A stretch of 25,147 nucleotides of DNA from positions 1 to 25,147 of the IMG/VR virus record IMGVR_UViG_3300038674_000629, one strand, 5' to 3'. This DNA is from a virus (Duplodnaviria; Caudoviricetes). Each line of letters opens with the position of its first letter. Position 1 is the stretch's first letter. Shown here piece after piece: positions 3,735 to 20,996 of this stretch. The notes below the pieces were generated by a model. That model was given only the letters and a program-made list of their open reading frames with translations. It had not been told where the DNA came from and searched no databases. The translations under genes were made by a program, and so were the position numbers.

Positions 3735-6700
3735 TTATCTACCTAATAACCAAGTTAATTCATCCAAAGAGTTTATGTTATATTCTTTTTTTAATTCTCT
3801 CTCTATACTAGAAGTTCCGAAATCTTCTGTTGTAGAAACTATTCCAGCAGGATTACTACCCTTAATAGATAATTTCTTTTTTCCAGTTCCATCTATGGAA
3901 GAAAAACTTTCATTTTCCGCCTTTGCACTTCTAATCATTTCATCTCTATCATATGTTATAACAGAACCATCTTCACTTAAAAACATGGCACTACTTTGTA
4001 TTTGAGCCTTGTCTCTTAAATACAAGCACAAACTCATAGCCATAATAGCATCGTCATGACAATTATGAACTATGTATCCATTTGCTACAAAGCTATGAAC
4101 ACCTTCAACATTTAAATCGTAAAGAGTTTCTTCTTTTGAATACTCTTTAATTTCCTTGATTTTCGAAGATAATTTATCACCAAAAAATTTTCTAGGATTC
4201 TTATATTTTTGAATCTTTTTAGATAATTCAGGAGATATCCTAAATACTTCTTCAAAAGGAATAGTTATTCTATTATTATCCATAGAAAAAGCAACTTTAT
4301 TTCTATAAAGAATATGAGCCATAAAATATAAACTATGATAATTTCTAGTCTTTAAAGAATAATAATGCCTACATTTTCTAAATTTACCTTTCCTAATCAT
4401 GTGTCTTACAAGTTCTAATTGAAGAATAGGGTAAGCGTATAATTGTTTCTCTGTTGGAATAAAACTACCATTTCTTATTTTCTTTTCTATTTCTATAATA
4501 GGTAAAGAATCTTTATTTGTTATTTCATTTGAAAATATACTATATACAAAATTACTCTTATTAAGTTCATATACCCTATTAAATTGGTATGCATTGTCTT
4601 TAAACGTCAATACTTTTTGTGAATCTGTTATTTTTAAATTAGGAAGCCCGCTAGCCTTAATATTTTTTATAACTTTTCTGTCGCTGTTTAAAACGAAAGT
4701 TTCCTCTACCGGTTTAAATTCTCCATTTTCTGTAAGAACTAAATCCCCTATATGTATATCTTTAATTTTTTTGAAACCTTCTTTACAAGTTATGATAGTA
4801 TCACCAGTTAAACAGTTGTCTGCGTGTATCGCTTTATCGCCAGTAGCCCATATCCAAGTTTCCATTTCTGCATATAATCTTTCTGAATTAATCTTAAATT
4901 TTTCTGCAAGTTCCGGAACAGAAATCCAGTCAATAAATTCAGAAGTCATTAATTTTCTTGTTTTAACATCGGTTAGCCAACCGGTATATCTCGTCACACC
5001 ATTTTTAGTTTTCTTCTGCTTAAAAACATTACCATATGGGTCGTTTTCAGAATAATAAACATTAGAGAATATAGTATCACCAATAGAGTTGCTTTCAATT
5101 ACTACAAAGCCATCATTATAAGCCCTTGCGACATCTTTTACTAATTTAGCAAACATTGGAGTAGAAATATAACCTTTAAATTCTGCTACTTGTTCGTATG
5201 TTTCTAAATCTAGAATTTGAATGGCAGAAGTATCAGAGCTTGTTCCCGATGCTACATCGCAATTATGAGTTGTTAAATAATTACACAAATAACTATGATT
5301 TTCAGTTTCAAAATTATATACTGTTCCAGAAAAATCACTTTTCTCTATTGAAGAAACTCTTAAATAGATATGTTTTAAATCATCACTTATAAAATTATGA
5401 CCTATTGATTTTCTTACTTTACTTTCTTTTGAGACATCATAATCAATACCAAGCATTTTCATAAAATTTATACTTTCATGGTGATGCATAGTTAACTGAT
5501 ACGCCTTTTGTGTTTTATTTTTCTCTTTTTTACCTTTAAGTAAAGTTTCTCCTTCTTCTCTTAACACATTTAACGAAGAAACAAAACCGATAGAGAATAA
5601 AATATCCTGAACATCTTCTAATAGTTTTTGACTTTTGCTAACAAAAGAAGTCGTATAATTCTCTCTCCTTTTGTCTGTAAAAATAGAACCATCTCCATTT
5701 AAATATCCAGTTATTAACTCTTTTTTAAATTCTTCTGGAGCATATTTTATCCATTCTGGAATATTTTTATTCCTAGCATATTTACCAAAATTCTTTTTTA
5801 TAAACGCAAATAGTTGCGAACTATTAAAGACAGTTTCTACAATATTAGAATCTGGCTTTTCTATAAAAGATACACTTCTTCCATATTTTTTAAATAATTC
5901 TCTTATTTTTTCTGCATAGTTATATTCTTTTGAAAAATTATGACAAGTATGAATTGATTTACTATCTCCTCTTTCTTGTATCCAACCTTCTGCCAACCAA
6001 ATTCCTAAAAACCACCAAAAGTCTTTATCTAATACAATATTTTCGTCAAGATTAAAATCGTATCTTCCGGAAGAAAATTTTCTCCACTCATTTAAGATAC
6101 TATCTTTATCCAAATCTTTTCCCCTATAAATATTAGGATATATCAACCAATCTCCACTGTTCAATTCTGAAACTTTATTATACTTAAAATCAAACTTCCA
6201 TTTTCTTGGTCTATATTTTTTACTGTCTCCCTTTCTTGAAATTTTTGTATCAATAGAGGACATAATAGGATGTTCTCCGGTAAAAGACGTTTCTCTTAAA
6301 ATTCCTTCTATTTTTATTTTATAAAGAGGTTCATTTACATTTTCATAAATTTGTTTATTTACTATTCTGGTTTCATTCCCGTCTTTATCAAATAAAATGT
6401 CATTTTGTTCTACTGTTTCTATATCCTTTAACCCTTCAGCGGTTAATACTTTTTCACCAGCTGGCAAACATCCTAAAATATATCTATGTCCAATTTCCGG
6501 AAGCCTCCAAATCCAAAGGCCCCTTTGTTCTCTTACTTTCTTTCCGTCTATCCATAATTCATCTTTATAAGTGGGGTCTTTTAAATTGATTCTAATTTTC
6601 TTCATTAAATCTTCGCTAAATACTCTGTCTCCATCGATTACGAATTCGTGGAGAATTTCTTGTTTAAATTTAATGTCCTTTAAGTCGGCAAAAGTCGCTT

Positions 6701-9395
6701 TCAACCAAGGGTTAGCGTCATGATTTAACGCTATTGGTTCAAAAAACTTTTTATATTCTGCTTTGATTTTTCTATTATGATAGTAATTTCTTTTGATTGC
6801 TTCTTGAAGAATATGATTATATCCTTTTTTAGGACCACCAATTCTTGGGTCGTCTGGCACTTCCCACCAGTCAATTTCCAAATATTTTGTATCTTGGTTT
6901 AATTCTTGCTTGGCATCTTGAACTTGTCCATAATAATAAGAACCAGCACCTACTGTTCCATTAGGTGTGTTTGAACCTATTACTCCATTTATATAAAAAC
7001 TTCTTGTTTCTGGAATAACAAAATCATACGTATGCGCTTCGCTAACTTCAATGTTTTTTACTTTAAGCAAAAACCAATCTTTGTCATAGAAATCTTTTAA
7101 TTTTTTAAACTCTTCTGTTTCTTCAAGATTTTCCTTTTTAGCAATATCAAGACATTCTTTTATATGATTTCTTGATAAATGCTTTTTCTCCGTAATTCTT
7201 ACTATTCTTGAAACAGTATTATTCCAAACATTATTCTTTTTAAATAGCATATTTGCTACCCAGATATTCATCATTGGGTAAAGTTGATTGTTTGGATGTT
7301 TTAAGTTTTTAACTAAATGATATTTTTCCTGTTTTCTGTTAATTGAAAATCCTATTTTTTCGTAAAACACTTTGGAAAAATACCTTGATAATGTAATTTG
7401 TCCAACAAAACTTTCTACATTTACTCGTGTAGATTTTTCAGGAGAAATAATATTCCATCTTTCATCAGAAATTTGTATTCCAAACATATCCAATAAAGCA
7501 CGCACTTGTTTTATGAGTTCTTTTGAAGTAGAAGTAAAACCAATAGAGCCGTCTCTTGTTCTTGAATACCCGTCCGAGTCGAACAAACCTCTTAATAAAG
7601 CAGAGATATTATTTCTACTCATTCTTAAAAGTTTTTTTGGAATAGTTTTCTCTTTTGCTTTTTTGCCAAACTCAAACCCAATTTTTTCAAGCAAATCTAT
7701 TAAGTATTTTCCCTGCAATCTAAAATGAATATTATCGTCTTTTCTATTTTCCATCTTGCAGTCAAAATGAGAATTATTTAAAAGAAAATTTTGAACTTCT
7801 TCGTCTACTGAAGTAATGACGCAATATTGCCCTTTTTTATCAATATAACCGTCTCCAATTAACAAACCAAAAAAATAAGCCATTTCTTCATCAATGTTTC
7901 CGTTCCAGTTTTTAATTTGGTATTTACAATTTTTAATAGGACTAATATCTACATCGTCATCTTTCCCAAACGTTTTTTCTCTGAGAGAAGCAAGTGCATA
8001 ATCACCAACCTCAATATCTTTTGTCTGTTTCCAATAAGGAAAGAAAGATGTTTTATCAACAACATAGAACGGATGAATTTCGGATATTTCGTTTTTAACA
8101 CCAGAACCAAATGTTATTTTTCTGGTTGGAGTTATCCCACTATCATAAAATGTATTTGTAGCCTGTTGATGATTAATTCCATCAATCTTGAAACTGCTTA
8201 TAAAATTAAACCCTAAAGAACATTTTTTTGGCTTATAATCAACAATTTGTTGCAAACCATTTTCTGTGTTTATATATGTATCTCCTACAACGCAAGAAAT
8301 ATAAATAGCCTTACCACCAGTTTTAGTAAGTGTAGGAGTTGCGGCCGAAACAATTTCTCTAACCATTCTATCACTTTGATAAAAAGCCAATTCGTCCATA
8401 ATTAACAACGAAAGAGAATCAGAACGGCCAGCATTATCTGACTGAGGTTCTGAGACAATATTAGATACCGAACCATTAGAGTGAGCAAATGAAATTTGTT
8501 GTTGGTTATTTACTTTTATTGGAGTCTTCATCCATTCTGGCAGATTATTTAAAGTGGATTTCATTTTGTTAATAAACTGTTGTGCTTTTTGTTGCCTCAA
8601 AGAAATAACATCTATATTTTCTGATGGAAAAAAATTAGCACGCCAAAGCGAGTATAGTGAAAATATCGTGGAAATTCCACAATTATGAACCATTAGCCCG
8701 TTAGCTAAAAAATCTCCTGTTGCTGTTGTAATATCATAAACTATATCGGTTTCTCTATTTCTTTCAATAACGCTAACTTTCTTATAACCATTTTCCGATA
8801 AAACTTCATCATTAAGTGTTAAATCCTGTGCTTCTTTCCATCCTTCTTTTGTAAGAATTTTATGGTCCGGAGTGCATTCAATAGATTGTCCAGAGTTTAC
8901 TAATATTCCCATAAACTCTTTTACGCCTTGATTATAAAAATTTTCTACCGGAACATATGTTGGCATACCATCTATAAGCGTTTCAATCATATCACCAGCA
9001 TTCACATCTCTTATAGAAATAAGACCCTTTCCTTTTATTCTAACATAAGAAGTGCTTCTTAAACATTGCCTGGTTTTATCTACTACAATCTTTCTGTATT
9101 TTTCTAATTCCTTAGCCATTTCAATTTGGAAATAATAAGGTTCCATTGGGAAAGTGCCTGAACCAGGAATATCTACAAGACAATAATTATCTAAAAAGTA
9201 AGCGAAAGAACTTCTAATTAAAAACAATTCAACACCAGAATCTACTAATTCTGTTGTTTTGTCATTATAGATAGTTTGAGTAAAAATATTCGAAGCATAG
9301 CCAAACGCTTCTTTCAATGATACAGGAATGTTATATTTTACAATTTTATTTTTTACAGATAAAATTAATTCTTTTTCTTTTTTATTTAATGCCAC
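3735..9395 (-). CDS. terL: Terminase large subunit, T4 gp17-like, containing four inteins (662-aa extein after splicing)
   Basis: GTG start with GGAG SD. The spliced extein restores the adenine-binding YYFQ, Walker A KTRQ|CGIST, Walker B LLIMDE, coupling motif IS|TPNG and the nuclease motifs ILG|CDVA, VIESN and HADN|CHDD. Confidence 0.95.
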   Translation of the reverse strand: MALNKKEKELILSVKNKIVKYNIPVSLKEAFGYASNIFTQTIYNDKTTELVDSGVELFLIRSSFAYFLDNYCLVDIPGSGTFPMEPYYFQIEMAKELEKYRKIVVDKTRQCLRSTSYVRIKGKGLISIRDVNAGDMIETLIDGMPTYVPVENFYNQGVKEFMGILVNSGQSIECTPDHKILTKEGWKEAQDLTLNDEVLSENGYKKVSVIERNRETDIVYDITTATGDFLANGLMVHNCGISTIFSLYSLWRANFFPSENIDVISLRQQKAQQFINKMKSTLNNLPEWMKTPIKVNNQQQISFAHSNGSVSNIVSEPQSDNAGRSDSLSLLIMDELAFYQSDRMVREIVSAATPTLTKTGGKAIYISCVVGDTYINTENGLQQIVDYKPKKCSLGFNFISSFKIDGINHQQATNTFYDSGITPTRKITFGSGVKNEISEIHPFYVVDKTSFFPYWKQTKDIEVGDYALASLREKTFGKDDDVDISPIKNCKYQIKNWNGNIDEEMAYFFGLLIGDGYIDKKGQYCVITSVDEEVQNFLLNNSHFDCKMENRKDDNIHFRLQGKYLIDLLEKIGFEFGKKAKEKTIPKKLLRMSRNNISALLRGLFDSDGYSRTRDGSIGFTSTSKELIKQVRALLDMFGIQISDERWNIISPEKSTRVNVESFVGQITLSRYFSKVFYEKIGFSINRKQEKYHLVKNLKHPNNQLYPMMNIWVANMLFKKNNVWNNTVSRIVRITEKKHLSRNHIKECLDIAKKENLEETEEFKKLKDFYDKDWFLLKVKNIEVSEAHTYDFVIPETRSFYINGVIGSNTPNGTVGAGSYYYGQVQDAKQELNQDTKYLEIDWWEVPDDPRIGGPKKGYNHILQEAIKRNYYHNRKIKAEYKKFFEPIALNHDANPWLKATFADLKDIKFKQEILHEFVIDGDRVFSEDLMKKIRINLKDPTYKDELWIDGKKVREQRGLWIWRLPEIGHRYILGCLPAGEKVLTAEGLKDIETVEQNDILFDKDGNETRIVNKQIYENVNEPLYKIKIEGILRETSFTGEHPIMSSIDTKISRKGDSKKYRPRKWKFDFKYNKVSELNSGDWLIYPNIYRGKDLDKDSILNEWRKFSSGRYDFNLDENIVLDKDFWWFLGIWLAEGWIQERGDSKSIHTCHNFSKEYNYAEKIRELFKKYGRSVSFIEKPDSNIVETVFNSSQLFAFIKKNFGKYARNKNIPEWIKYAPEEFKKELITGYLNGDGSIFTDKRRENYTTSFVSKSQKLLEDVQDILFSIGFVSSLNVLREEGETLLKGKKEKNKTQKAYQLTMHHHESINFMKMLGIDYDVSKESKVRKSIGHNFISDDLKHIYLRVSSIEKSDFSGTVYNFETENHSYLCNYLTTHNCDVASGTSSDTSAIQILDLETYEQVAEFKGYISTPMFAKLVKDVARAYNDGFVVIESNSIGDTIFSNVYYSENDPYGNVFKQKKTKNGVTRYTGWLTDVKTRKLMTSEFIDWISVPELAEKFKINSERLYAEMETWIWATGDKAIHADNCLTGDTIITCKEGFKKIKDIHIGDLVLTENGEFKPVEETFVLNSDRKVIKNIKASGLPNLKITDSQKVLTFKDNAYQFNRVYELNKSNFVYSIFSNEITNKDSLPIIEIEKKIRNGSFIPTEKQLYAYPILQLELVRHMIRKGKFRKCRHYYSLKTRNYHSLYFMAHILYRNKVAFSMDNNRITIPFEEVFRISPELSKKIQKYKNPRKFFGDKLSSKIKEIKEYSKEETLYDLNVEGVHSFVANGYIVHNCHDDAIMAMSLCLYLRDKAQIQSSAMFLSEDGSVITYDRDEMIRSAKAENESFSSIDGTGKKKLSIKGSNPAGIVSTTEDFGTSSIERELKKEYNINSLDELTWLLGR
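4062..4814 (-). mobile_element. Intein 4: 251 aa with a degenerate endonuclease remnant, before the nuclease HDD motif
   Basis: Starts CLTGDTII, block F LYDLNVEG, ends YIVHN followed by +1 Cys. No intact LAGLIDADG motif. Block B reads TDSQ. Confidence 0.9.
5262..6470 (-). mobile_element. Intein 3: 403 aa with LAGLIDADG homing endonuclease, next to the first nuclease Asp
   Basis: Starts CLPAGEKV, block B FTGEHPI, motifs LGIWLAEGW and ITGYLNGDGS, ends LTTHN followed by +1 Cys. Confidence 0.93.
6969..8294 (-). mobile_element. Intein 2: 442 aa with LAGLIDADG homing endonuclease, in the ATPase coupling motif
   Basis: Starts CVVGDTYI, block B SEIHPF, LAGLIDADG motifs FGLLIGDGY and LRGLFDSDGY, ends VIGSN followed by +1 Thr. 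Confidence 0.93.
8682..9065 (-). mobile_element. Intein 1: 128-aa mini-intein in terminase Walker A
   Basis: Starts CLRSTSYV, block B CTPDHKIL, block F VYDITT, ends LMVHN followed by +1 Cys. No endonuclease domain. Confidence 0.93.
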
Positions 9396-9482: not shown

Positions 9483-10370
9483 TCATTTTATTTCATTCTC
9501 TTTAATAAAATCATCTCCGCTTTTCGCTAATTCCCTAAGCTTTTGACGATATCCAAATCTCTCTAATATCTTTGCTACAATTTCATTTAAAGATTGGTGC
9601 GGGTTGCTGTCGCTTTTTGTTTTAAAATCAAGTGTTGTTCTGAAAGGTTCATCATTGTACGCTTCCTGCCTAAATGAAGATATTAAATGCGATATCATAT
9701 TTAACTGGTCTACATCCGCTTTTAAGTCCAAGAGTTTTCTACTCATTGCTTCTTTCTTTTCTTCTTCTGAAATATCTTGAAACTGTGTATCTAACGATTT
9801 ATAGATTTCAAACTCTCTTTTATCTCTTATGAATTGTGAAACTGCTAAATCTGCTCCGTTTATAAAAAAAGTAGCAACATGCAATCCATAAGAATAAGGT
9901 ATATTCATAGAATATGAATCTGTTTTCTTTATCCATTTATCAGATGCTAAATCATAAATATTATCCATATTCTTTTCTATTATGTCTTCACCTTTTGGTA
10001 AAAAATAAAAATCAATAGGATGTAAACTTTCTTCACCGTCTATTTTTAACTTTTGTCCACTTGGAGATATTTCTATTATTTTATCTACTTGTTCTTTTGT
10101 CATAGTAGTAAGAACGGAAACATCAATATCGCTTTCAGCAGTGTATTGGTAGCCCAAAGCACTTCCTTTTATTTTTATAGCCTCTATATCAAAGTTAAAA
10201 TTTATTTGCTTTTTCCATTTTCTAAGAATAGAATATATCTGCTCTTTTACTTCTTTTTTTATTTTATCATTTTCGTCGAAAAGCCAATCTGCTCTTTTAT
10301 TTTGTGGAGGGTCTAATATGCTTTCGTTAAGCCCTAATATCTTTATCAAATGTTTATCTGCTGTTGTCAT
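9483..10370 (-). CDS. Pol-beta superfamily nucleotidyltransferase
   Basis: hG[S]-x-DhDh signature IKGSALGYQYTAESDIDVSV, third acidic residue in HPIDFY, helical C-terminal part. Substrate unknown. Confidence 0.78.
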   Translation of the reverse strand: MTTADKHLIKILGLNESILDPPQNKRADWLFDENDKIKKEVKEQIYSILRKWKKQINFNFDIEAIKIKGSALGYQYTAESDIDVSVLTTMTKEQVDKIIEISPSGQKLKIDGEESLHPIDFYFLPKGEDIIEKNMDNIYDLASDKWIKKTDSYSMNIPYSYGLHVATFFINGADLAVSQFIRDKREFEIYKSLDTQFQDISEEEKKEAMSRKLLDLKADVDQLNMISHLISSFRQEAYNDEPFRTTLDFKTKSDSNPHQSLNEIVAKILERFGYRQKLRELAKSGDDFIKENEIK

Positions 10371-12339: not shown

Positions 12340-14925
12340 TTATTTTTGTATTTTAGTAGAAAATTCTGGTTCAAGCAATTTTGCTTTTAATGCTTTCCCA
12401 TCCAAATCAGCAAGAGCAGACTTAGCCAATTGCTTTATTTGCGAATCAGAGAATTTGTTTCCATTAAAATTTATGGCGACAGCAATTCTTCTCTCGAATC
12501 TTTCCGCCTGAGACATTTTTGCTATTTCTCTTTCAACTATCTTTCTCATTTCTTCGGTAGAAATAGAGTTTAATATATCTTCGTTGCTTGACAAAAATTC
12601 ATACAAATTTCCTTTTTTAACCGAAGAATCTATTTTTTTAGCAGTATCTTGACTAATTTTAGAGAAGTCAACAACTTTCTTTAAATTTTGAATTCTCTCT
12701 TTTTCTTCTTCATTAGAAACTTTTGACAATCCCTCGTCTATAATAGATTTTATATCTTCAACTTCATATGTGGCATTTTCGCCTTGTGATTCTCTTTCTT
12801 TAGACTTTTCAATATTTTGCTTCTTTTGAATAATCTTCTTTAATCTTTCTTTTCCTTCTTTTGAACCAGTTCCTATATTTTTAGCGGAAACAACAGTATT
12901 AATTCCGTCTAAGAAATCCAAATATATATTAGCAATTATTCTAAAAGCAGTTTTATCATTTCCACCTTGCCCGTCAGCAAATTTTTTTAAGTAAGAAATT
13001 TCTGGCGCATCTCTTTCTATTCCGGAATATTTATATTCTGGTTTTGTTCTCTCTTTTACTATAGAAAGAACATTTGGCCCAAATTTATGAGTCTTAGACA
13101 AAGAACCAGTATCTTCCATTTCCTCTGCTTCTTCTATTTCCTCGCTGTCAATATCAGATGGTTTTTTATAAGTATTTGTCAATTTGTTTCTGGCGGCATA
13201 AGAAGAAAAAGTTAGCATATCAACTATTTTTTTATAATTTCTTCTTACATAATCTGCCATTTTACCGCTAACATAAGCATCTTCTAAATCATCTAAATAT
13301 CTGTAGTAATCACTTACTAGAACTTGTGCTTCGCTACTGGCACTATCAGATGCTTCTGATACTTTTATAGCTTTAAATTCTATTTTTTTTGTTTCAGCAT
13401 CTTTTGGCCTTGTCTTAAAATGTTTTACAAGTTTATCATAATCTTCTCTAAAAACAGCACTTTTTTGCAATTCTTCTTCTTTTTCTGAATTACTCATTTC
13501 TCTGTCTTGAACAATATACTCATATTCGTCTATTGTTCTTTGAAGAAAATCATTATATTGTTTTAAGTACCATCTTACTTTTATGCTTTCTTCTTTTATT
13601 TTATCGCCAAATCCAGACCTTCTAAAATTTTTTTTATCAGTTAAAGATGGTTGTTTCTCTGCAATAAAAGAAGGCAAAAATTTATTCATTACCCAAGCCA
13701 AATCAGATTTATAACCACTCATTAAAGCTGAGACAATTGTTTCCTTATTTTCACTACCACCACCAGAAACGATATATTTATCTAAAAAGTTCTTGACAAT
13801 ATCAGCAATTCTCTTCTTTTCTTCTCTTGCTTTTACAATATTTTTTTCGTATTCTGGGAAATTTCCACTCAACCCTTTATTCTTTTCAAGTTCTTTTTGC
13901 TCTTTGGATTGTTTTTCTTTTTCTTCTTTTTCTAAGGCATCTTTTTCAAGTCTTTCCTTTGGAGGATTGCTAACAGCCAAATCTATTGCCTTCGCTACTT
14001 TATTTGCAAATTCTTGTGTTATCTGCCCTGCTCTGACAGCAGTATTAAGTGTCCTAACTATTCCTCTTCCACCAATTCCGTGAGCAGCATCTATCCAACT
14101 TGAATTGGCATATTTACCAGGATTCCCTTTCATTACTTTATCTATATAATAATATCCAGCATCTTTTAAATTTCCACTTTCTATCATTTCTACAAATTTA
14201 GGTTCTATTACATCTTTTACCGCCATTTCTATAAGAAAACCTTCTTCTATGTTATCCGGTTTTTTGGCGGTAATAGTTCTTATTTTTTTTGCTTGTTTTT
14301 CTGGAAGTTCTTTCTTTAATTGTTTAACTGCTTTAAGATTTTTTATATCATCATCCATAAAATAAACATAATCAAAGTATCTTCTTATTTTATTAATAAC
14401 ATTTTTTTTCTTTTCATAGTCAGTTTCGCCCCTATAAAATTTTTCTTCATCATTTACGGCGAAAACATATTTTCTATTAAGAGGAGCCGGTTTCAGACTT
14501 CCGTCTGGTGCTCTATATTTTAGAAAATCACTCAAAGCTGAAAAAACCACATCTTCCATACCACGTGCTGTAAGAATTCCTATCTTATAGCCTCCACTAA
14601 TAAAATTATCCATAGCTTTAAGATTATTTATGTAAGGCAACCCTTTTCTAATAGAATTTGCTACTTTGACCGGGTCCCTGAATTCTCTATAACTATAATA
14701 TTTCTTTTCTTCGGGAGTTGGATGTTCATCAGCATATTGTGCGGGAGTCAACTTAACTTCTTTTTTGTCGGTAGGAAGTTTTCTCCATATAAAAATATCT
14801 CTTGCTTGAAGTAAAGTATCATCTACATCTAGAAGTAAAATACCCTTTTTCTTTTTACCTGTATTTTTATTTACCGGAAGTGTTTCTTCATTGTATACTA
14901 TATCAAAAATTTCTAAAAGCGTCAT
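12340..14925 (-). CDS. HAD-family phosphatase domain fused to a long K/E-rich region of unknown function
   Basis: HAD motif I LLLDVDDTL, motif II ILTARG, motif III Lys (EKKKNV) and motif IV FMDDDIKNL within roughly the first 220 aa. GGAGG SD. Confidence 0.72.
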   Translation of the reverse strand: MTLLEIFDIVYNEETLPVNKNTGKKKKGILLLDVDDTLLQARDIFIWRKLPTDKKEVKLTPAQYADEHPTPEEKKYYSYREFRDPVKVANSIRKGLPYINNLKAMDNFISGGYKIGILTARGMEDVVFSALSDFLKYRAPDGSLKPAPLNRKYVFAVNDEEKFYRGETDYEKKKNVINKIRRYFDYVYFMDDDIKNLKAVKQLKKELPEKQAKKIRTITAKKPDNIEEGFLIEMAVKDVIEPKFVEMIESGNLKDAGYYYIDKVMKGNPGKYANSSWIDAAHGIGGRGIVRTLNTAVRAGQITQEFANKVAKAIDLAVSNPPKERLEKDALEKEEKEKQSKEQKELEKNKGLSGNFPEYEKNIVKAREEKKRIADIVKNFLDKYIVSGGGSENKETIVSALMSGYKSDLAWVMNKFLPSFIAEKQPSLTDKKNFRRSGFGDKIKEESIKVRWYLKQYNDFLQRTIDEYEYIVQDREMSNSEKEEELQKSAVFREDYDKLVKHFKTRPKDAETKKIEFKAIKVSEASDSASSEAQVLVSDYYRYLDDLEDAYVSGKMADYVRRNYKKIVDMLTFSSYAARNKLTNTYKKPSDIDSEEIEEAEEMEDTGSLSKTHKFGPNVLSIVKERTKPEYKYSGIERDAPEISYLKKFADGQGGNDKTAFRIIANIYLDFLDGINTVVSAKNIGTGSKEGKERLKKIIQKKQNIEKSKERESQGENATYEVEDIKSIIDEGLSKVSNEEEKERIQNLKKVVDFSKISQDTAKKIDSSVKKGNLYEFLSSNEDILNSISTEEMRKIVEREIAKMSQAERFERRIAVAINFNGNKFSDSQIKQLAKSALADLDGKALKAKLLEPEFSTKIQK

Positions 14926-16101: not shown

Positions 16102-16131
16102 AAAAAGGAGGCTTAAAAGCCTCCTTCTTTT
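16100..16131. terminator. Bidirectional intrinsic terminator between convergent genes
   Basis: Stem AAGGAGGCTT (16105-16114) / AAGCCTCCTT (16117-16126), with an A-run on the left and a T-rich run on the right. Confidence 0.85.
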
Positions 16132-16327
16132 ATCTATCTTTTATTTTTTCTAACAAAGTCATAGATACCCAAAACCCAACTTTAAACAACTTTACAGAAT
16201 CGTCTACTACTTTTTCCACCTTATAAATTTTACCATTGCTTTTTTCTATGAAATTTTTCATGTCATCATTTAAAAAGGTTGAAGAGTAATTTTTTTTAAA
16301 TCTTACATATGAATTCTCTTTAATCAT
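16130..16327 (-). CDS. Small hypothetical protein (possibly SH3/KOW-like beta fold)
   Basis: 65 aa with AAGGAG SD, overlapping the upstream stop. Beta-strand pattern GKIYKVEKV..VKLFKVGFWV. Confidence 0.65.
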   Translation of the reverse strand: MIKENSYVRFKKNYSSTFLNDDMKNFIEKSNGKIYKVEKVVDDSVKLFKVGFWVSMTLLEKIKDR

Positions 16328-17147
16328 ATTTTACTCCTTTGTCTTTATTTATGATAGAAACTGGATATCCGCCCTGATATGTTCCTGGCATTGGAACCAT
16401 ACTGTTTTTATTATAAACTATTTCTCCAATTTCTCCAATTTCTCCAATTAATTTCTTGTTAGCAGACTCTATTCCAAAACTTATTATATCATTAGGATTG
16501 AACTTTATTTGATTTTTGTCTATTAATAAATGATAACCAGAATGTGTATCTACCCAAAAATATCTACTAATTCCTTTTACAATCAAAAAATCAGAGACTT
16601 CTTCGATATATTTTTCCGATTTGTTTTCTAAATCAAAATCAAAATCTATATAATGTTTAGTTCCTGTTGATTGTTGATACATAGTCATTAAATTATTATC
16701 TATCTTATTTAATCTATTGAAGAAATTACTACTATCTCCACCTCTAACCAGCAAAGAAGCAATTTCTGAATTGTATTCATTTATCAAACCTTGAAAAGCA
16801 TTTAATGCCCTAAAAGTATCAGAAGGGTTTATATTTATATAGCACACCATAGTTTTTGAAGGAATTGGAATATTACTTTTTGTGGTATATCCTCTTTCAT
16901 CACACTCTAATTTTCTTATAGTACGAATAAATCTATCCCAACTTCTTTCTCTAATTATTGTTTTGGCAAACATTTCTGTTCTGCCAAGACTATAAAACTC
17001 CCTTTCTTCTTCTGTTAAATATTTGTTTCTAGCCGATAAAGAAAGGAAGTAAACTTCTGTTTCTTTAAGAGGAGGCAAAACATTATCAAAAAACCATTTT
17101 AATTCAGATTCATCACTTACTATTTTTACAAATTTACTTTCTTCCAT
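16320..17147 (-). CDS. Hypothetical protein with archaeo-eukaryotic primase (AEP)-like catalytic motifs
   Basis: hhDhD motif (YIDFDFD), T/S-x-x-G-h-H motif (DTHSGYHLL) and downstream VPMPGT in the order expected for AEP/prim-pol folds. Confidence 0.5.
   Translation of the reverse strand: MEESKFVKIVSDESELKWFFDNVLPPLKETEVYFLSLSARNKYLTEEEREFYSLGRTEMFAKTIIRERSWDRFIRTIRKLECDERGYTTKSNIPIPSKTMVCYININPSDTFRALNAFQGLINEYNSEIASLLVRGGDSSNFFNRLNKIDNNLMTMYQQSTGTKHYIDFDFDLENKSEKYIEEVSDFLIVKGISRYFWVDTHSGYHLLIDKNQIKFNPNDIISFGIESANKKLIGEIGEIGEIVYNKNSMVPMPGTYQGGYPVSIINKDKGVKYD
16421..16447. repeat. In-frame 9-bp tandem repeat, three copies (TTTCTCCAA; encodes IGEIGEIGE)
   Basis: Three exact copies at 16421, 16430 and 16439. 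Confidence 0.9.
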
Positions 17148-17155
17148 TTCTTAAC

Positions 17156-17392
17156 CTAACTATTAAAATTATTAAATTCCTCTTCTACTAATTTCATTAT
17201 ATTACTAGCTACTTCATTATTAAATTCTTTATATTCTGGAATTTTGAAATAATATGAACCAGCAAATTGCCCAAACGAAAATATTATTTCGCCTTTAAAG
17301 ATACTACAAGAAGCATCCTCTCCAAACATTTCATTCATTTTTCTATTAAATCTATTTTTTAATAGATCAAAAAAATCTTTCTCAGTTTGCAT
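17156..17392 (-). CDS. Hypothetical protein
   Basis: 78-aa ORF coupled to the dUTPase stop (TAATG overlap). Confidence 0.65.
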   Translation of the reverse strand: MQTEKDFFDLLKNRFNRKMNEMFGEDASCSIFKGEIIFSFGQFAGSYYFKIPEYKEFNNEVASNIMKLVEEEFNNFNS

Positions 17393-17880
17393 TACTTAAC
17401 GCCAGTAGAACCAAATCCACCATCTCCTCTATCTGTTTCTTCAAGGGTATCAACTACTTCAAAACCTAGTAAACAAACAGGTGCAATAACTGCTTGAGCT
17501 ATTCTATCGCCTTTTGAAACAACAAAAGGCTCTTTACCGGCATTGTGCAGAATCACGCCAACTTCTCCGATATATCCACTATCAATAGTTCCTGGGCTAT
17601 TAAGGACAAACACACTGTTTTTTAGTGCTAATCCAGAGCGACTTCTTATTTGAATCTCAAATCCTTCTGGTATAGAAAAATAATTTCCAGTTCCGACAAC
17701 TTTCGTCTCTCCCGGGTAAATTATTACATCTTGATTCGAAAACAAATCTGCTCCAGCATCATTCTTATGCTTTCTAAGAGGCAACTTAGCACCTTCGTCA
17801 AGTTTAATTTTTATTAAATTATTTTTTTCTTTAATAGCATAAATTTCTAATTCTTTGTCCCATGTCAATTTATCTTTCAT
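17392..17880 (-). CDS. dut: Trimeric dUTPase
   Basis: All five motifs present: AGADL, RSG, GTIDSGYIG, GDRIAQ, RGDGGFGSTG. Confidence 0.97.
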   Translation of the reverse strand: MKDKLTWDKELEIYAIKEKNNLIKIKLDEGAKLPLRKHKNDAGADLFSNQDVIIYPGETKVVGTGNYFSIPEGFEIQIRSRSGLALKNSVFVLNSPGTIDSGYIGEVGVILHNAGKEPFVVSKGDRIAQAVIAPVCLLGFEVVDTLEETDRGDGGFGSTGVK

Positions 17881-18434
17881 ACTTCGTGAGTTCCTTCTAT
17901 TCCTCTTACTTCTCTTTTTAAAGTTCTAGAACGTAGCCACATAACTGCCTCTCTTAAACGTTCAAGAGCCTTTTCATTTTCATCGCATTTAAATTTACCC
18001 TCTTGAAATTTTTCAAGTCTAGTTATAATCATAAGCAATAAATCTTCATTCATTACTCCATTGACACCACACTCTTTAATAGGGCCTTGCTGAAAATGAA
18101 TTTCAGATAAAAGTTCATTGTCCGATACTCTTCTAACCTCAAAATCATGAAGAGCAGATACATCTGTTTCTGATTTATTTCCCCCATACACATTTGTGTA
18201 TTTATTAGTAAACAAATAATTATTTATTTTTTCCATAGTTCCTCTTTGTTTTTCGTCTTCCCAAACTATTCCTAGTTTTTCAATATTTTTTTCGAAATAA
18301 GTTAAAAGCATAATATTGCCTTTTTTATTTCTATCTTTATTAAAAGAAGTTATTTCCATATCTGGATTTAATTCGTTTAATACTTCAATTAAATCTTTAA
18401 CTGTCTTAAACATAGTTGTATTTTTATCCCTCAT
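17877..18434 (-). CDS. tad1: Tad1-like cyclic-nucleotide sponge domain (17877-18236) with an extra 66-aa N-terminal domain
   Basis: The C-terminal 119 aa (H-D-F..IHFQQGPIKE..NGVMNEDLL..RLEKFQEGKF..ENEKAL..EAVMWL..R..R..R.IEGT) follow the Tad1 pattern as I recall it (FQKG..GV.D.DLL..RL..FQ.G.F..EN..AL..EALMW...R...R..R.VLGT). Confidence 0.78.
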   Translation of the reverse strand: MRDKNTTMFKTVKDLIEVLNELNPDMEITSFNKDRNKKGNIMLLTYFEKNIEKLGIVWEDEKQRGTMEKINNYLFTNKYTNVYGGNKSETDVSALHDFEVRRVSDNELLSEIHFQQGPIKECGVNGVMNEDLLLMIITRLEKFQEGKFKCDENEKALERLREAVMWLRSRTLKREVRGIEGTHEV

Positions 18435-18448
18435 TTTACTCTCTAATT

Positions 18449-18456
18449 TATATAAG
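18449..18456 (-). promoter_or_regulatory. CTTATATA motif upstream of the Tad1-like/dUTPase genes
   Basis: Exact copy in a 24-nt intergenic gap, 14 nt before the ATG at 18434. Confidence 0.5.
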
Positions 18457-18458
18457 AA

Positions 18459-19010
18459 TTATTCGTATTCTTTCAATAGAAGATAAACTTCATCAAAATC
18501 AGGCAAAAACATTTCTATCATCTCCACAGTATCTTCGTGCAGTAGCATATCTCCTTTATTGCTATTATACCAATCAGATGGTAAATTTTTAAAATTCAAA
18601 CTCATAGCAGTCCAATCGCAAAGCATTTCAAGAATATCTACAACGGGCATATACAATGCTTTTGATTGCCTGTCCCTTTTAAACATCACATAATACTGCC
18701 AATGATGCGAATTCTTCTTTTGATGTTCATTCCAAGCCCTTTCAAATAAATCATGATTTTTTTCATTTTCATTATCTGGGAAAAACCATTGTCTATACCC
18801 TATGAATTCATTCCCAATATATTTTGAACTGTCATGATTTTTTATAGCCTTATCAACCATAGAAACTAATGTGTCTTCTTTACCTTCTGGGTAATTTAGT
18901 TCTTTCATCTTTTTCCATACATTTTGAACGTTTTGAATATGTTTATTAACATATTTCATGTACTCTTTTTCTTTTGGGTTCAAACTCTCTACAATTTCCC
19001 TGTAATCCAT
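18459..19010 (-). CDS. HD-superfamily-like metal-dependent hydrolase (DUF5662-like)
   Basis: Conserved H (NKHIQNV), HD (KNHDSSK), H..N.HH (EHQKKNSHHWQY) and EM.CDW motifs. AGGAG SD. Confidence 0.7.
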   Translation of the reverse strand: MDYREIVESLNPKEKEYMKYVNKHIQNVQNVWKKMKELNYPEGKEDTLVSMVDKAIKNHDSSKYIGNEFIGYRQWFFPDNENEKNHDLFERAWNEHQKKNSHHWQYYVMFKRDRQSKALYMPVVDILEMLCDWTAMSLNFKNLPSDWYNSNKGDMLLHEDTVEMIEMFLPDFDEVYLLLKEYE

Positions 19011-20406: not shown

Positions 20407-20436
20407 AAAAAATAGCGAGTATTGAATACTCGCTAT
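20405..20436 (-). terminator. Intrinsic terminator overlapping the zincin stop codon and the -35 box
   Basis: 12-bp inverted repeat ATAGCGAGTATT (20412-20423) / AATACTCGCTAT (20425-20436) followed by a T-run on the minus strand. Confidence 0.85.
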
Positions 20437-20996
20437 CTCAATCTCTCTTGCCAAAACTTTGAGTCTATTTGGAAAATTTTGCTTCTCCTCAATAACTCTG
20501 CGAGTTCTTTATTACTTCCCTCATTCATATGTTCCCATCTTATTTTTTCATTCATAAGATAAGGCAAGACTTCATTTTTATTAACAAATTTATTTTTTAT
20601 GTCTTTTCTTCCTAACACTATCTCCGATACCTGAGAGTTTGGAAGTTTATTTCTATTTAGAAAATCCCATACTTGAACAGATAGATTTTTAATTTCCCTA
20701 TTTTTTTTAAATTGCAGAACATGTATAAATTCATGTAAAAGAATCGATATTTGTTCTGTTTTACTAAGAGAATAAAAAACAGGTTTATTTACAAAAATAG
20801 TTTCAAAGGAATTGGTGTAAGCAGCCAAATTTTTATTGCTATTAACTACCTCTTTTATTTCTAAATTAGGTATAGATTTGTTTATTTTGTTTAAAAATCC
20901 TTGGGAAAAAACCTGAGAGGCATAACTTTTAAAAAATGCCATTAAATCTGGACTCTTCCCCATCTTCTGCTCTATTAAATAATTTTCTAAATCCAT
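20433..20996 (-). CDS. Zincin-like metallopeptidase
   Basis: HExxH motif (LLHEFIHVLQ) preceded by AAYT..IFVN strands, with a candidate downstream Glu in NEVLPY. Confidence 0.7.
   Translation of the reverse strand: MDLENYLIEQKMGKSPDLMAFFKSYASQVFSQGFLNKINKSIPNLEIKEVVNSNKNLAAYTNSFETIFVNKPVFYSLSKTEQISILLHEFIHVLQFKKNREIKNLSVQVWDFLNRNKLPNSQVSEIVLGRKDIKNKFVNKNEVLPYLMNEKIRWEHMNEGSNKELAELLRRSKIFQIDSKFWQERLR

What the first reader, a model, noticed from the sequence alone, without database searches (positions are those of the whole stretch)
17877..18434. Tad1-like immune-signal sponge fused in frame to a second small phage domain, with an internal start
Seen: the C-terminal 119 aa match the Tad1 pattern. 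The N-terminal 66 aa contain KTVKDLIEVLNELNPDMEI, like a common stand-alone small phage protein motif. A GAGGA sequence precedes the internal ATG at 18236, so long and short isoforms are possible. Known: Tad1 sequesters Thoeris gcADPR and also CBASS cyclic di- and trinucleotides, and sponge fusions have pointed to new anti-defence domains. Inference: the N-terminal domain is a candidate uncharacterised anti-defence module, or the fusion arose by loss of a stop codon.
Basis: partly seen in the sequence, partly recalled or inferred. Interest (0 to 1): 0.72.

Follow-up and report, generated by a model that had tools for sequence, protein, structure and literature searches.

The report
Tad1 sponge with fused orphan gene
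A large phage carries a Tad1-family gene, whose product likely soaks up the bacterial Thoeris alarm molecule, joined in frame to a small orphan gene, probably by a recent lost stop codon, and the Tad1 part is predicted to have lost its second pocket, the one for three-nucleotide alarms.

Summary
Window 17877-18434 (-) is one 185-codon frame. Residues 67-185 are a whole Tad1 (CmTad1 match, E 3e-33). The junction is open in contigs from two independent studies, so it is not an assembly error.

The anti-defence reading of the N-terminal 66 aa gets no support. They are real coding sequence but have no homologue outside their own two-member cluster. All five nearest Tad1 relatives (85-87% identical) are stand-alone 119-aa proteins starting at the same Met, which here keeps a Shine-Dalgarno-like GAGGA. 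The best reading is a recent read-through fusion of a small upstream gene to tad1, likely made as long and short forms.

The gcADPR pocket is intact (F143, N153, R170, R174), but the cyclic-trinucleotide pocket is charge-reversed: CmTad1 R88/A91/M92/T95/Q98 are D151/E154/K155/E158/R161. Both R88 and T95 positions are acidic in only 1 of 102 homologues, the sister protein. So this Tad1 likely blocks Thoeris but not cA3/cAAG signalling, and might thereby avoid the cA3-decoy guard, type II Panoptes (untested). Verdict: variant of a known kind, modest interest.

The parts
17877..18434 (-). Whole open frame, 185 aa: orphan N part plus Tad1
   Evidence: exact protein in the collection, cluster of 2 members; junction open in two other studies
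17877..18236 (-). Full-length Tad1 domain, 119 aa from M67, CmTad1-type
   Evidence: CmTad1 E 3e-33; phrog_2428 E 5e-41; Foldseek CmTad1 E 1e-11
18237..18434 (-). Orphan 66-codon N part, likely a formerly separate small gene
   Evidence: coding-like codon use; no homologue beyond own cluster; low model confidence, block means 40-64 for aa 1-60
18240..18244 (-). Shine-Dalgarno-like GAGGA, 3 nt before the M67 ATG; likely the ancestral tad1 start
   Evidence: only 2 of 130 internal in-frame ATGs in the other window genes have such a 5-mer; use as a start not shown
17952..17984 (-). Charge-reversed central (cyclic trinucleotide) pocket: D151, E154, K155, E158, R161 in place of CmTad1 R88, A91, M92, T95, Q98
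   Evidence: alignment; residue roles from PMC10680739 section 6; frequencies; coordinates
17913..18008 (-). Span holding the intact gcADPR/cyclic dinucleotide pocket residues F143, N153, R170, R174
   Evidence: equal to CbTad1 F82, N92, R109, R113; invariant in alignment A2 of 78 sequences
18459..19010 (-). Upstream neighbour, DUF5662 protein
   Evidence: PF18907 E 2e-30; cluster of 7
17392..17880 (-). Downstream neighbour, dUTPase, overlapping the Tad1 stop by 4 nt
   Evidence: PF00692 E 3e-27; overlap

Best explanation
This is a full-length Tad1-family gene joined in frame to a 66-codon orphan coding segment, likely through recent loss of the upstream gene's stop codon; the Tad1 part is predicted to sequester Thoeris gcADPR and predicted not to bind cyclic trinucleotides. 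Shown: the open frame, its presence in two other studies, Tad1 sequence and fold, the intact peripheral pocket residues, the acidic central pocket residues, and stand-alone 119-aa sister proteins. Inferred: ribosomes start at both M1 (or M8) and M67, so infected cells hold mostly ordinary 119-aa Tad1 plus some long form with a loosely tethered N domain. Tad1 dimers would bind 1''-3' gcADPR at the dimer-interface pockets and blunt ThsA activation. The D151/R161 swap mirrors the family's R/E pair and may keep the hexamer while E154/E158 make the centre repel cA3/cAAG. The N domain most likely keeps whatever job it had as a free small protein, and the fusion is tolerated rather than selected.
For: Tad1 match begins at M67, where native CmTad1 begins. 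5 of 5 members of the nearest cluster (85-87% identical) are 119 aa and start at the same Met; 3 of these 5 list the same longest-contig length as a member of the upstream DUF5662 cluster, which suggests the same locus (inference). The N part has 0 hits at E<=0.001 among 1.84 billion representatives, no candidate at 36-116 aa and only its own cluster at 117-2000 aa. SD-like 5-mer before M67: 2 of 130 other internal ATGs. Among 19 of 102 homologues longer than 165 aa, 17 could be anchored: the 4 with a Met at the domain start carry sporadic N parts (P0054, P0066/P0097, P0086), while 0 of 12 anchored members of the two recurrent partner groups keep that Met; this gene belongs to the first pattern. 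Pocket: R at the 88 position in 92 of 102 and T at 95 in 91 of 102 homologues, both acidic in 1 of 102; R90A or T97A in CbTad1 cut cA3 binding but spared gcADPR binding.
Against: I could not get DNA of the sister phages (searches gave nothing close), so a stop upstream of their tad1 was not seen; 119 aa is a gene caller's choice. The fusion is the same in three studies with no change in the N part, so it is not purged. One depth-2 contig in X3 diverges 17 nt before the M67 ATG, and its 30 visible letters read without a stop in the Tad1 frame with a Trp at the same distance from the Met (my hand translation); a diverged in-frame partner may therefore exist. SD spacing of 3 nt is shorter than the 4-11 nt at the 11 of 19 window starts that have an SD 4-mer. 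R161 or K155 could take over phosphate binding. 19 of 84 sponges tested by Hadary et al. inhibited none of seven systems.
Confidence: 0.6

Rival explanations
1. The fusion is selected: the N part is a second anti-defence module (for example a new sponge), carried on the Tad1 oligomer as in Acb4-Tad2 or Sequestin fusions.
For: Sponge fusions led to Sequestin (10.1101/2025.07.12.664507, passages). The N part is coding, small, and resembles unnamed small phage proteins at TM about 0.6. The frame is open in three studies.
Against: Sequestin was picked on 60 and 91 fusion instances; this partner occurs in one cluster of 2. Net charge of the N part is 0. No match to Pfam, PHROGs, NCBIfam or PDB sequences. 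The internal Met and SD are kept.
Confidence: 0.12
2. Only the 119-aa Tad1 is made in quantity; M1 is hardly used, and the N part is a decaying small gene whose open frame is incidental.
For: M1 has no SD 4-mer and a weak anti-SD duplex (-3.3 kcal/mol against -5.9 at M67). The N part folds with low confidence.
Against: Strong codon signal and no stop or indel in 66 codons (open by chance in 0.085% of shuffles). 8 of 19 window starts also lack an SD 4-mer. Low confidence is expected without an alignment for that part.
Confidence: 0.15
3. The remodelled centre is not a dead pocket but a changed one: it binds a different, less anionic ligand, or it breaks the hexamer into gcADPR-binding dimers.
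For: Five positions changed together and are kept in all 5 sister proteins; K106 is also changed to S, and these residues build the hexamer interface. The D-E-K-E-K/R pattern also appears in L001, the most distant of 111 sequences in a tree built with those columns masked.
Against: L001 was fetched with a pattern taken from this very motif, so its frequency is biased. No ligand data exist. M165, W166 and E162 of the interface are kept.
Confidence: 0.12
4. The fusion is a sequencing or assembly error.
For: None beyond the rarity of the form.
Against: Two other studies bridge the junction with no stop or gap, and a second protein record with 2 substitutions has the same 185-aa form.
Confidence: 0.01

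Closest known systems
CmTad1 (Thoeris anti-defence 1, PDB 8KBB/8KBC/8KBD; Li et al., PMC10680739)
   Same: About 50% identity over the whole 119-aa domain, same fold (TM by target about 0.8), same start position, gcADPR pocket residues and C-terminal lid motif kept.
   Different: Central cA3/cAAG pocket is charge-reversed (R88 to D, T95 to E, A91 to E, M92 to K, Q98 to R, K106 to S); a 66-aa orphan N extension is present.
CbTad1 (PDB 7UAV/7UAW/8KBE-H) and phiKZ gp184 (8Y6V chain I, 230 aa)
   Same: Tad1 helical hairpin and pocket residues F82/N92/R109/R113 (E 2e-9; gp184 E 6e-8). gp184 also has its Tad1 match at the C end of a longer chain.
   Different: About 30% structural identity to CbTad1; the N part has no match to gp184's N region.
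Sponge-sponge fusions (Acb4-Tad2, Sequestin/PF21825 fusions; Tal et al., 10.1101/2025.07.12.664507)
   Same: A small domain joined in frame to a known sponge.
   Different: Those partners recur tens of times and are families on their own; this partner is an orphan and keeps the downstream gene's own start signals.

Membership tests
Tad1 | Sequence homology to characterised Tad1 over the full domain | tested here: met
   CmTad1 E 3e-33, aa 64-185; phrog_2428 E 2e-41
Tad1 | N-terminal antiparallel beta-sheet plus two C-terminal helices | tested here: met
   AF2 with 78-row alignment: strands 80-85, 97-102, 108-113, helices 128-145, 151-176; Foldseek CmTad1 E 1e-11
Tad1 | gcADPR/cyclic dinucleotide pocket residues (CbTad1 F82, N92, R109, R113) | tested here: met
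   F143, N153, R170, R174; kept in 95 of 98 locus-derived homologues
Tad1 (anti-CBASS trinucleotide activity) | Central CTN pocket residues (CmTad1 R88, T95, with C87, A91, M92) | tested here: not met
   D151, E158, E154, K155; only C150 kept. Li et al. report 6% of Tad1s with substitutions at this site, so this is a variable feature, not a bar to membership
Tad1 | Hexamer interface residues (R88, K96, T95, Q98, E99, M102, W103, K106) | tested here: inconclusive
   E162, M165, W166 kept, K96 to R; R88/Q98 swapped to D/R, T95 to E, K106 to S. No oligomer model was obtained
Pfam PF24729 Acb2/Tad1 hairpin | Profile match | tested here: inconclusive
   No hit at E<=0.05 in the local Pfam copy, while 11 of 11 long homologues hit; the collection's precomputed annotation lists PF24729.3. 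The changed helix may explain the miss (inference)
Tad1 | Binds gcADPR and inhibits Thoeris in vivo | not testable with these tools
   needs binding and plaque assays
Recurrent sponge-partner fusion (Sequestin-type evidence) | Partner recurs in many fusions and exists as a stand-alone family | tested here: not met
   none of 19 long homologues shares this N part at E<=1e-3
Known sponge families in the N part (Acb2, Acb4, Tad2, Sequestin, Lockin) | Profile or PDB sequence match | tested here: not met
   no such hit in Pfam, PHROGs, NCBIfam or PDB sequences; a remote fold match could not be tested because the N part is modelled poorly

The most novel reading that the evidence does not exclude
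A stealth sponge: this Tad1 lineage sealed its cA3 pocket by a coordinated charge swap, so it neutralises Thoeris without draining the cA3 decoy that keeps type II Panoptes silent, and the same swap arose independently in a distant Tad1 (L001). This would be a natural example of the narrow-specificity escape route that the type II Panoptes paper raises as a possibility. Separately, about 0.1 chance that the orphan N part is a new anti-defence domain.
Probability: 0.2. Interest if true: 0.62.

Novelty: new variant of a known kind. Interest (0 to 1): 0.32.

Why it matters
The fusion itself is a caution: an in-frame partner on a sponge is informative only when it recurs, and a kept Met plus SD at the domain boundary marks a likely read-through accident. 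The pocket change matters more. Tad1 is described as a 2+6 site, dual Thoeris/CBASS sponge, and type II Panoptes is triggered by cA3 depletion. A natural Tad1 that keeps the six peripheral sites and acidifies the two central ones gives a direct test of whether guard systems push sponges towards narrower specificity, and could serve as a gcADPR-selective reagent.

Tried and rejected
Assembly error: rejected. Alternative genetic code: not needed, since neighbouring genes read as long frames with family hits under table 11. N part against the 132 fetched loci: best phmmer E 0.35 among 8209 frames, not significant. Single-sequence fold was unusable (pLDDT 36). Atlas rows DUF6225 and DapH_N scored under 0.9 and were dropped. 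No RNA holder listed, which says nothing on expression. No Rfam match, tRNA, terminator, excess of promoter-like sites or telling repeat near the gene. Naming the ex-stop codon: Q63 (CAA) sits directly before AGAGGA and is one change from a stop, but so are 41% of the N-part codons, so this is not evidence. A search of the Hadary et al. supplements (4 files) for two short motifs found one distant Tad1 with part of the acidic motif and no copy of the N motif.

Full report
Setting. The window is part of a large T4-like phage record: portal (PF07230), an intein-rich terminase, late sigma factor, primase, DnaB helicase, NAD ligase, peptide deformylase and dUTPase. The closest portal among GenBank phages is about 31% identical, so the phage is uncultured and its host unknown. 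Runs that hold the locus are bioreactor and activated-sludge metagenomes. The gene lies in a tightly packed minus-strand run, 24 nt after a DUF5662 gene and overlapping dUTPase by 4 nt.

Observation. The frame 17877-18434 (-) is 185 codons without a stop. M67 (ATG at 18236) leaves 119 aa and is preceded by GAGGA and 3 nt. Residues 64-185 match CmTad1 at E 3e-33, and M67 aligns with the native first Met of CmTad1 behind its tag. PHROG 2428 matches at E 2e-41. An AlphaFold2 model from a 78-row alignment has the Tad1 sheet and two helices at high confidence and the N part at block means of 40-64 for residues 1-60; Foldseek ranks CmTad1 first (E 1e-11). The local Pfam copy gave no PF24729 hit, although 11 of 11 long homologues hit and the collection lists it for this protein.

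The fusion is real DNA. Of 4 runs laid, X1 may be the source. X4 (one contig, 18153-18483) and X5 (18162-18356, then 18356-18605), from two other studies, bridge the junction with no stop or gap; their 2 differences are in the Tad1 part. Depth is only 2-4. A second protein record, P0001, has the same 185-aa form with 2 substitutions. The N part is true coding sequence: 0 of 500 stop-free shuffles reach its codon score.

The fusion is not conserved. Of 102 homologues, 78 are 140 aa or shorter and 19 exceed 165 aa. The nearest cluster (5 members, 85-87% identical) is all 119 aa, starting at the same Met. The N part found 0 proteins at E<=0.001 among 1.84 billion representatives, no candidate among 36-116 aa proteins, and only its own cluster among 117-2000 aa proteins. 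Short queries have limited power in such libraries, so a remote family is not excluded; the Atlas offers only unnamed small phage proteins below its reliability bar.

How it arose. The 19 long homologues fall into two patterns. Two partner modules recur (10 and 3 proteins; representatives match phrog_419 and phrog_11049), and 0 of their 12 anchorable members has a Met at the Tad1 start. Four proteins with sporadic N parts (P0054, P0066, P0097, P0086) keep that Met. P0012 is single and lacks the Met; P0027 and P0089 could not be anchored. Our gene keeps the Met and an SD-like 5-mer that only 2 of 130 other internal in-frame ATGs in the window have. I infer a small upstream gene that lost its stop and now reads through the old ribosome-binding site (as Arg-Gly-Thr) into tad1. 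Against a pure accident: the form persists unchanged in three studies, and one depth-2 contig in X3 shows a diverged sequence that appears to stay in frame for at least nine codons with a Trp at the same spacing (hand translation, a lead only).

The pockets. From Li et al. (PMC10680739; sections 6, 7, 8 and passages read), gcADPR and cyclic dinucleotides bind through CbTad1 F82, N92, R109, R113, and cyclic trinucleotides bind at the trimer interface through CmTad1 R88 and T95, with C87, A91, M92; the two sites are independent. Mapping by the alignment, the first set is intact (F143, N153, R170, R174; invariant). The second reads D151, E158, C150, E154, K155, with Q98 as R161 and K106 as S169. 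R is at the 88 position in 92 of 102 homologues and T at 95 in 91 of 102; both are acidic in 1 of 102, the sister P0002, and in 1 of 98 scorable domains from fetched loci. All five sister proteins share the change, so it predates the fusion or is independent of it. The family has E at the 98 position in 92 of 102, so R88/E98 became D/R, a reciprocal swap that may hold the interface together (inference). In a FastTree of 111 sequences with these columns masked, our clade nests inside canonical R/T/E proteins (supports 0.95-0.98 at the 18- and 19-tip nodes, 0.70-0.86 nearer the tips), and L001, with D-E-K-E-K, is the most distant tip. That suggests convergence, but L001 was fetched with the motif itself. 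Li et al. already note that 6% of Tad1s have substitutions at this site, so pocket loss as such is known.

Mechanism. Most likely (0.6), infection yields the ordinary 119-aa Tad1 and some 185-aa form. Both would bind gcADPR in the dimer pockets and damp type I Thoeris, and neither would bind cA3/cAAG. The N domain is a passenger. Sequence features are shown; expression, starts, binding and phenotype are inferred.

A possible reason for the pocket change. Type II Panoptes makes cA3 as a decoy and fires when a sponge removes it; the authors note that a more specific sponge could avoid it (PMC13577387, passages; no occurrence of Tad1 in its main text). A Tad1 without the cA3 site would fit that route. 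This is a hypothesis (0.2). Type I Panoptes is reported to respond to Tad1 homologues, probably via a cyclic dinucleotide (review PMC13712596, passages), and the intact peripheral pocket would not protect from that.

Literature and novelty. Six searches (listings seen) showed no paper on a Tad1 with an acidic central pocket or on this fusion; most subscription papers are outside the library, and bioRxiv supplements are closed. Tal et al. (10.1101/2025.07.12.664507; abstract and passages) used recurrent fusions. Hadary et al. (10.1101/2025.08.24.671296; passages; PMC12393519 supplements searched for two motifs) list 1,587 Tad1 homologues. One passage of 10.64898/2026.10.05.756390 notes Tad1-like genes paired with a separate small upstream-or-adjacent ORF in mycobacteriophages. 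Earlier notes of this scan list several other Tad1 fusions (unchecked by me), which makes one more fusion unsurprising. Verdict: a real Tad1 variant; fusion probably incidental; the pocket swap is the part worth an experiment. Interest 0.32.

Noticed in passing
P0013, P0017, P0020, P0058, P0059, P0076, P0082, P0083, P0090, P0099: A phrog_419-like module of unknown function is fused to Tad1 in 10 of 19 long homologues without an internal Met; no Pfam or PDB sequence hit for that part of P0017. A much better sponge-partner candidate than the N part studied here.
   Followed up: partly
P0022, P0026, P0027: A second recurrent Tad1 partner (phrog_11049/phrog_872-like, unknown function), with no Pfam or PDB sequence hit for that part of P0026.
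   Followed up: partly
L001 2986-3387 and 3353-3985: A distant Tad1 (41%) with the same acidic central-pocket signature; the next gene holds a stretch that by eye resembles the phrog_419-like module (not tested).
   Followed up: partly
window 3735-9395 (-): 1886-aa large terminase interrupted by several inteins (5 intein-splicing stretches, 2 LAGLIDADG stretches).
   Followed up: no
window 12340-14925 (-): 861-aa protein with a weak polynucleotide-kinase/HAD-like N region (phrog_415, E 5e-6) and a long unannotated remainder.
   Followed up: no
window 16130-17392 (-): Three unannotated ORFs (78, 275, 65 aa) directly downstream of dUTPase with no significant Pfam, PHROG or NCBIfam hit.
   Followed up: no
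window 18219-18253, run X3 record 6: A depth-2 contig matches the junction with 5 differences and then diverges; it may come from a sister phage with a diverged upstream ORF.
   Followed up: partly
window 9483-10370 and 20433-20996 (-): A weak nucleotidyltransferase-like ORF (PF22600, E 4e-4) and a SprT-like metallopeptidase ORF (PF10263, E 1e-4), both below the curated cut-offs.
   Followed up: no
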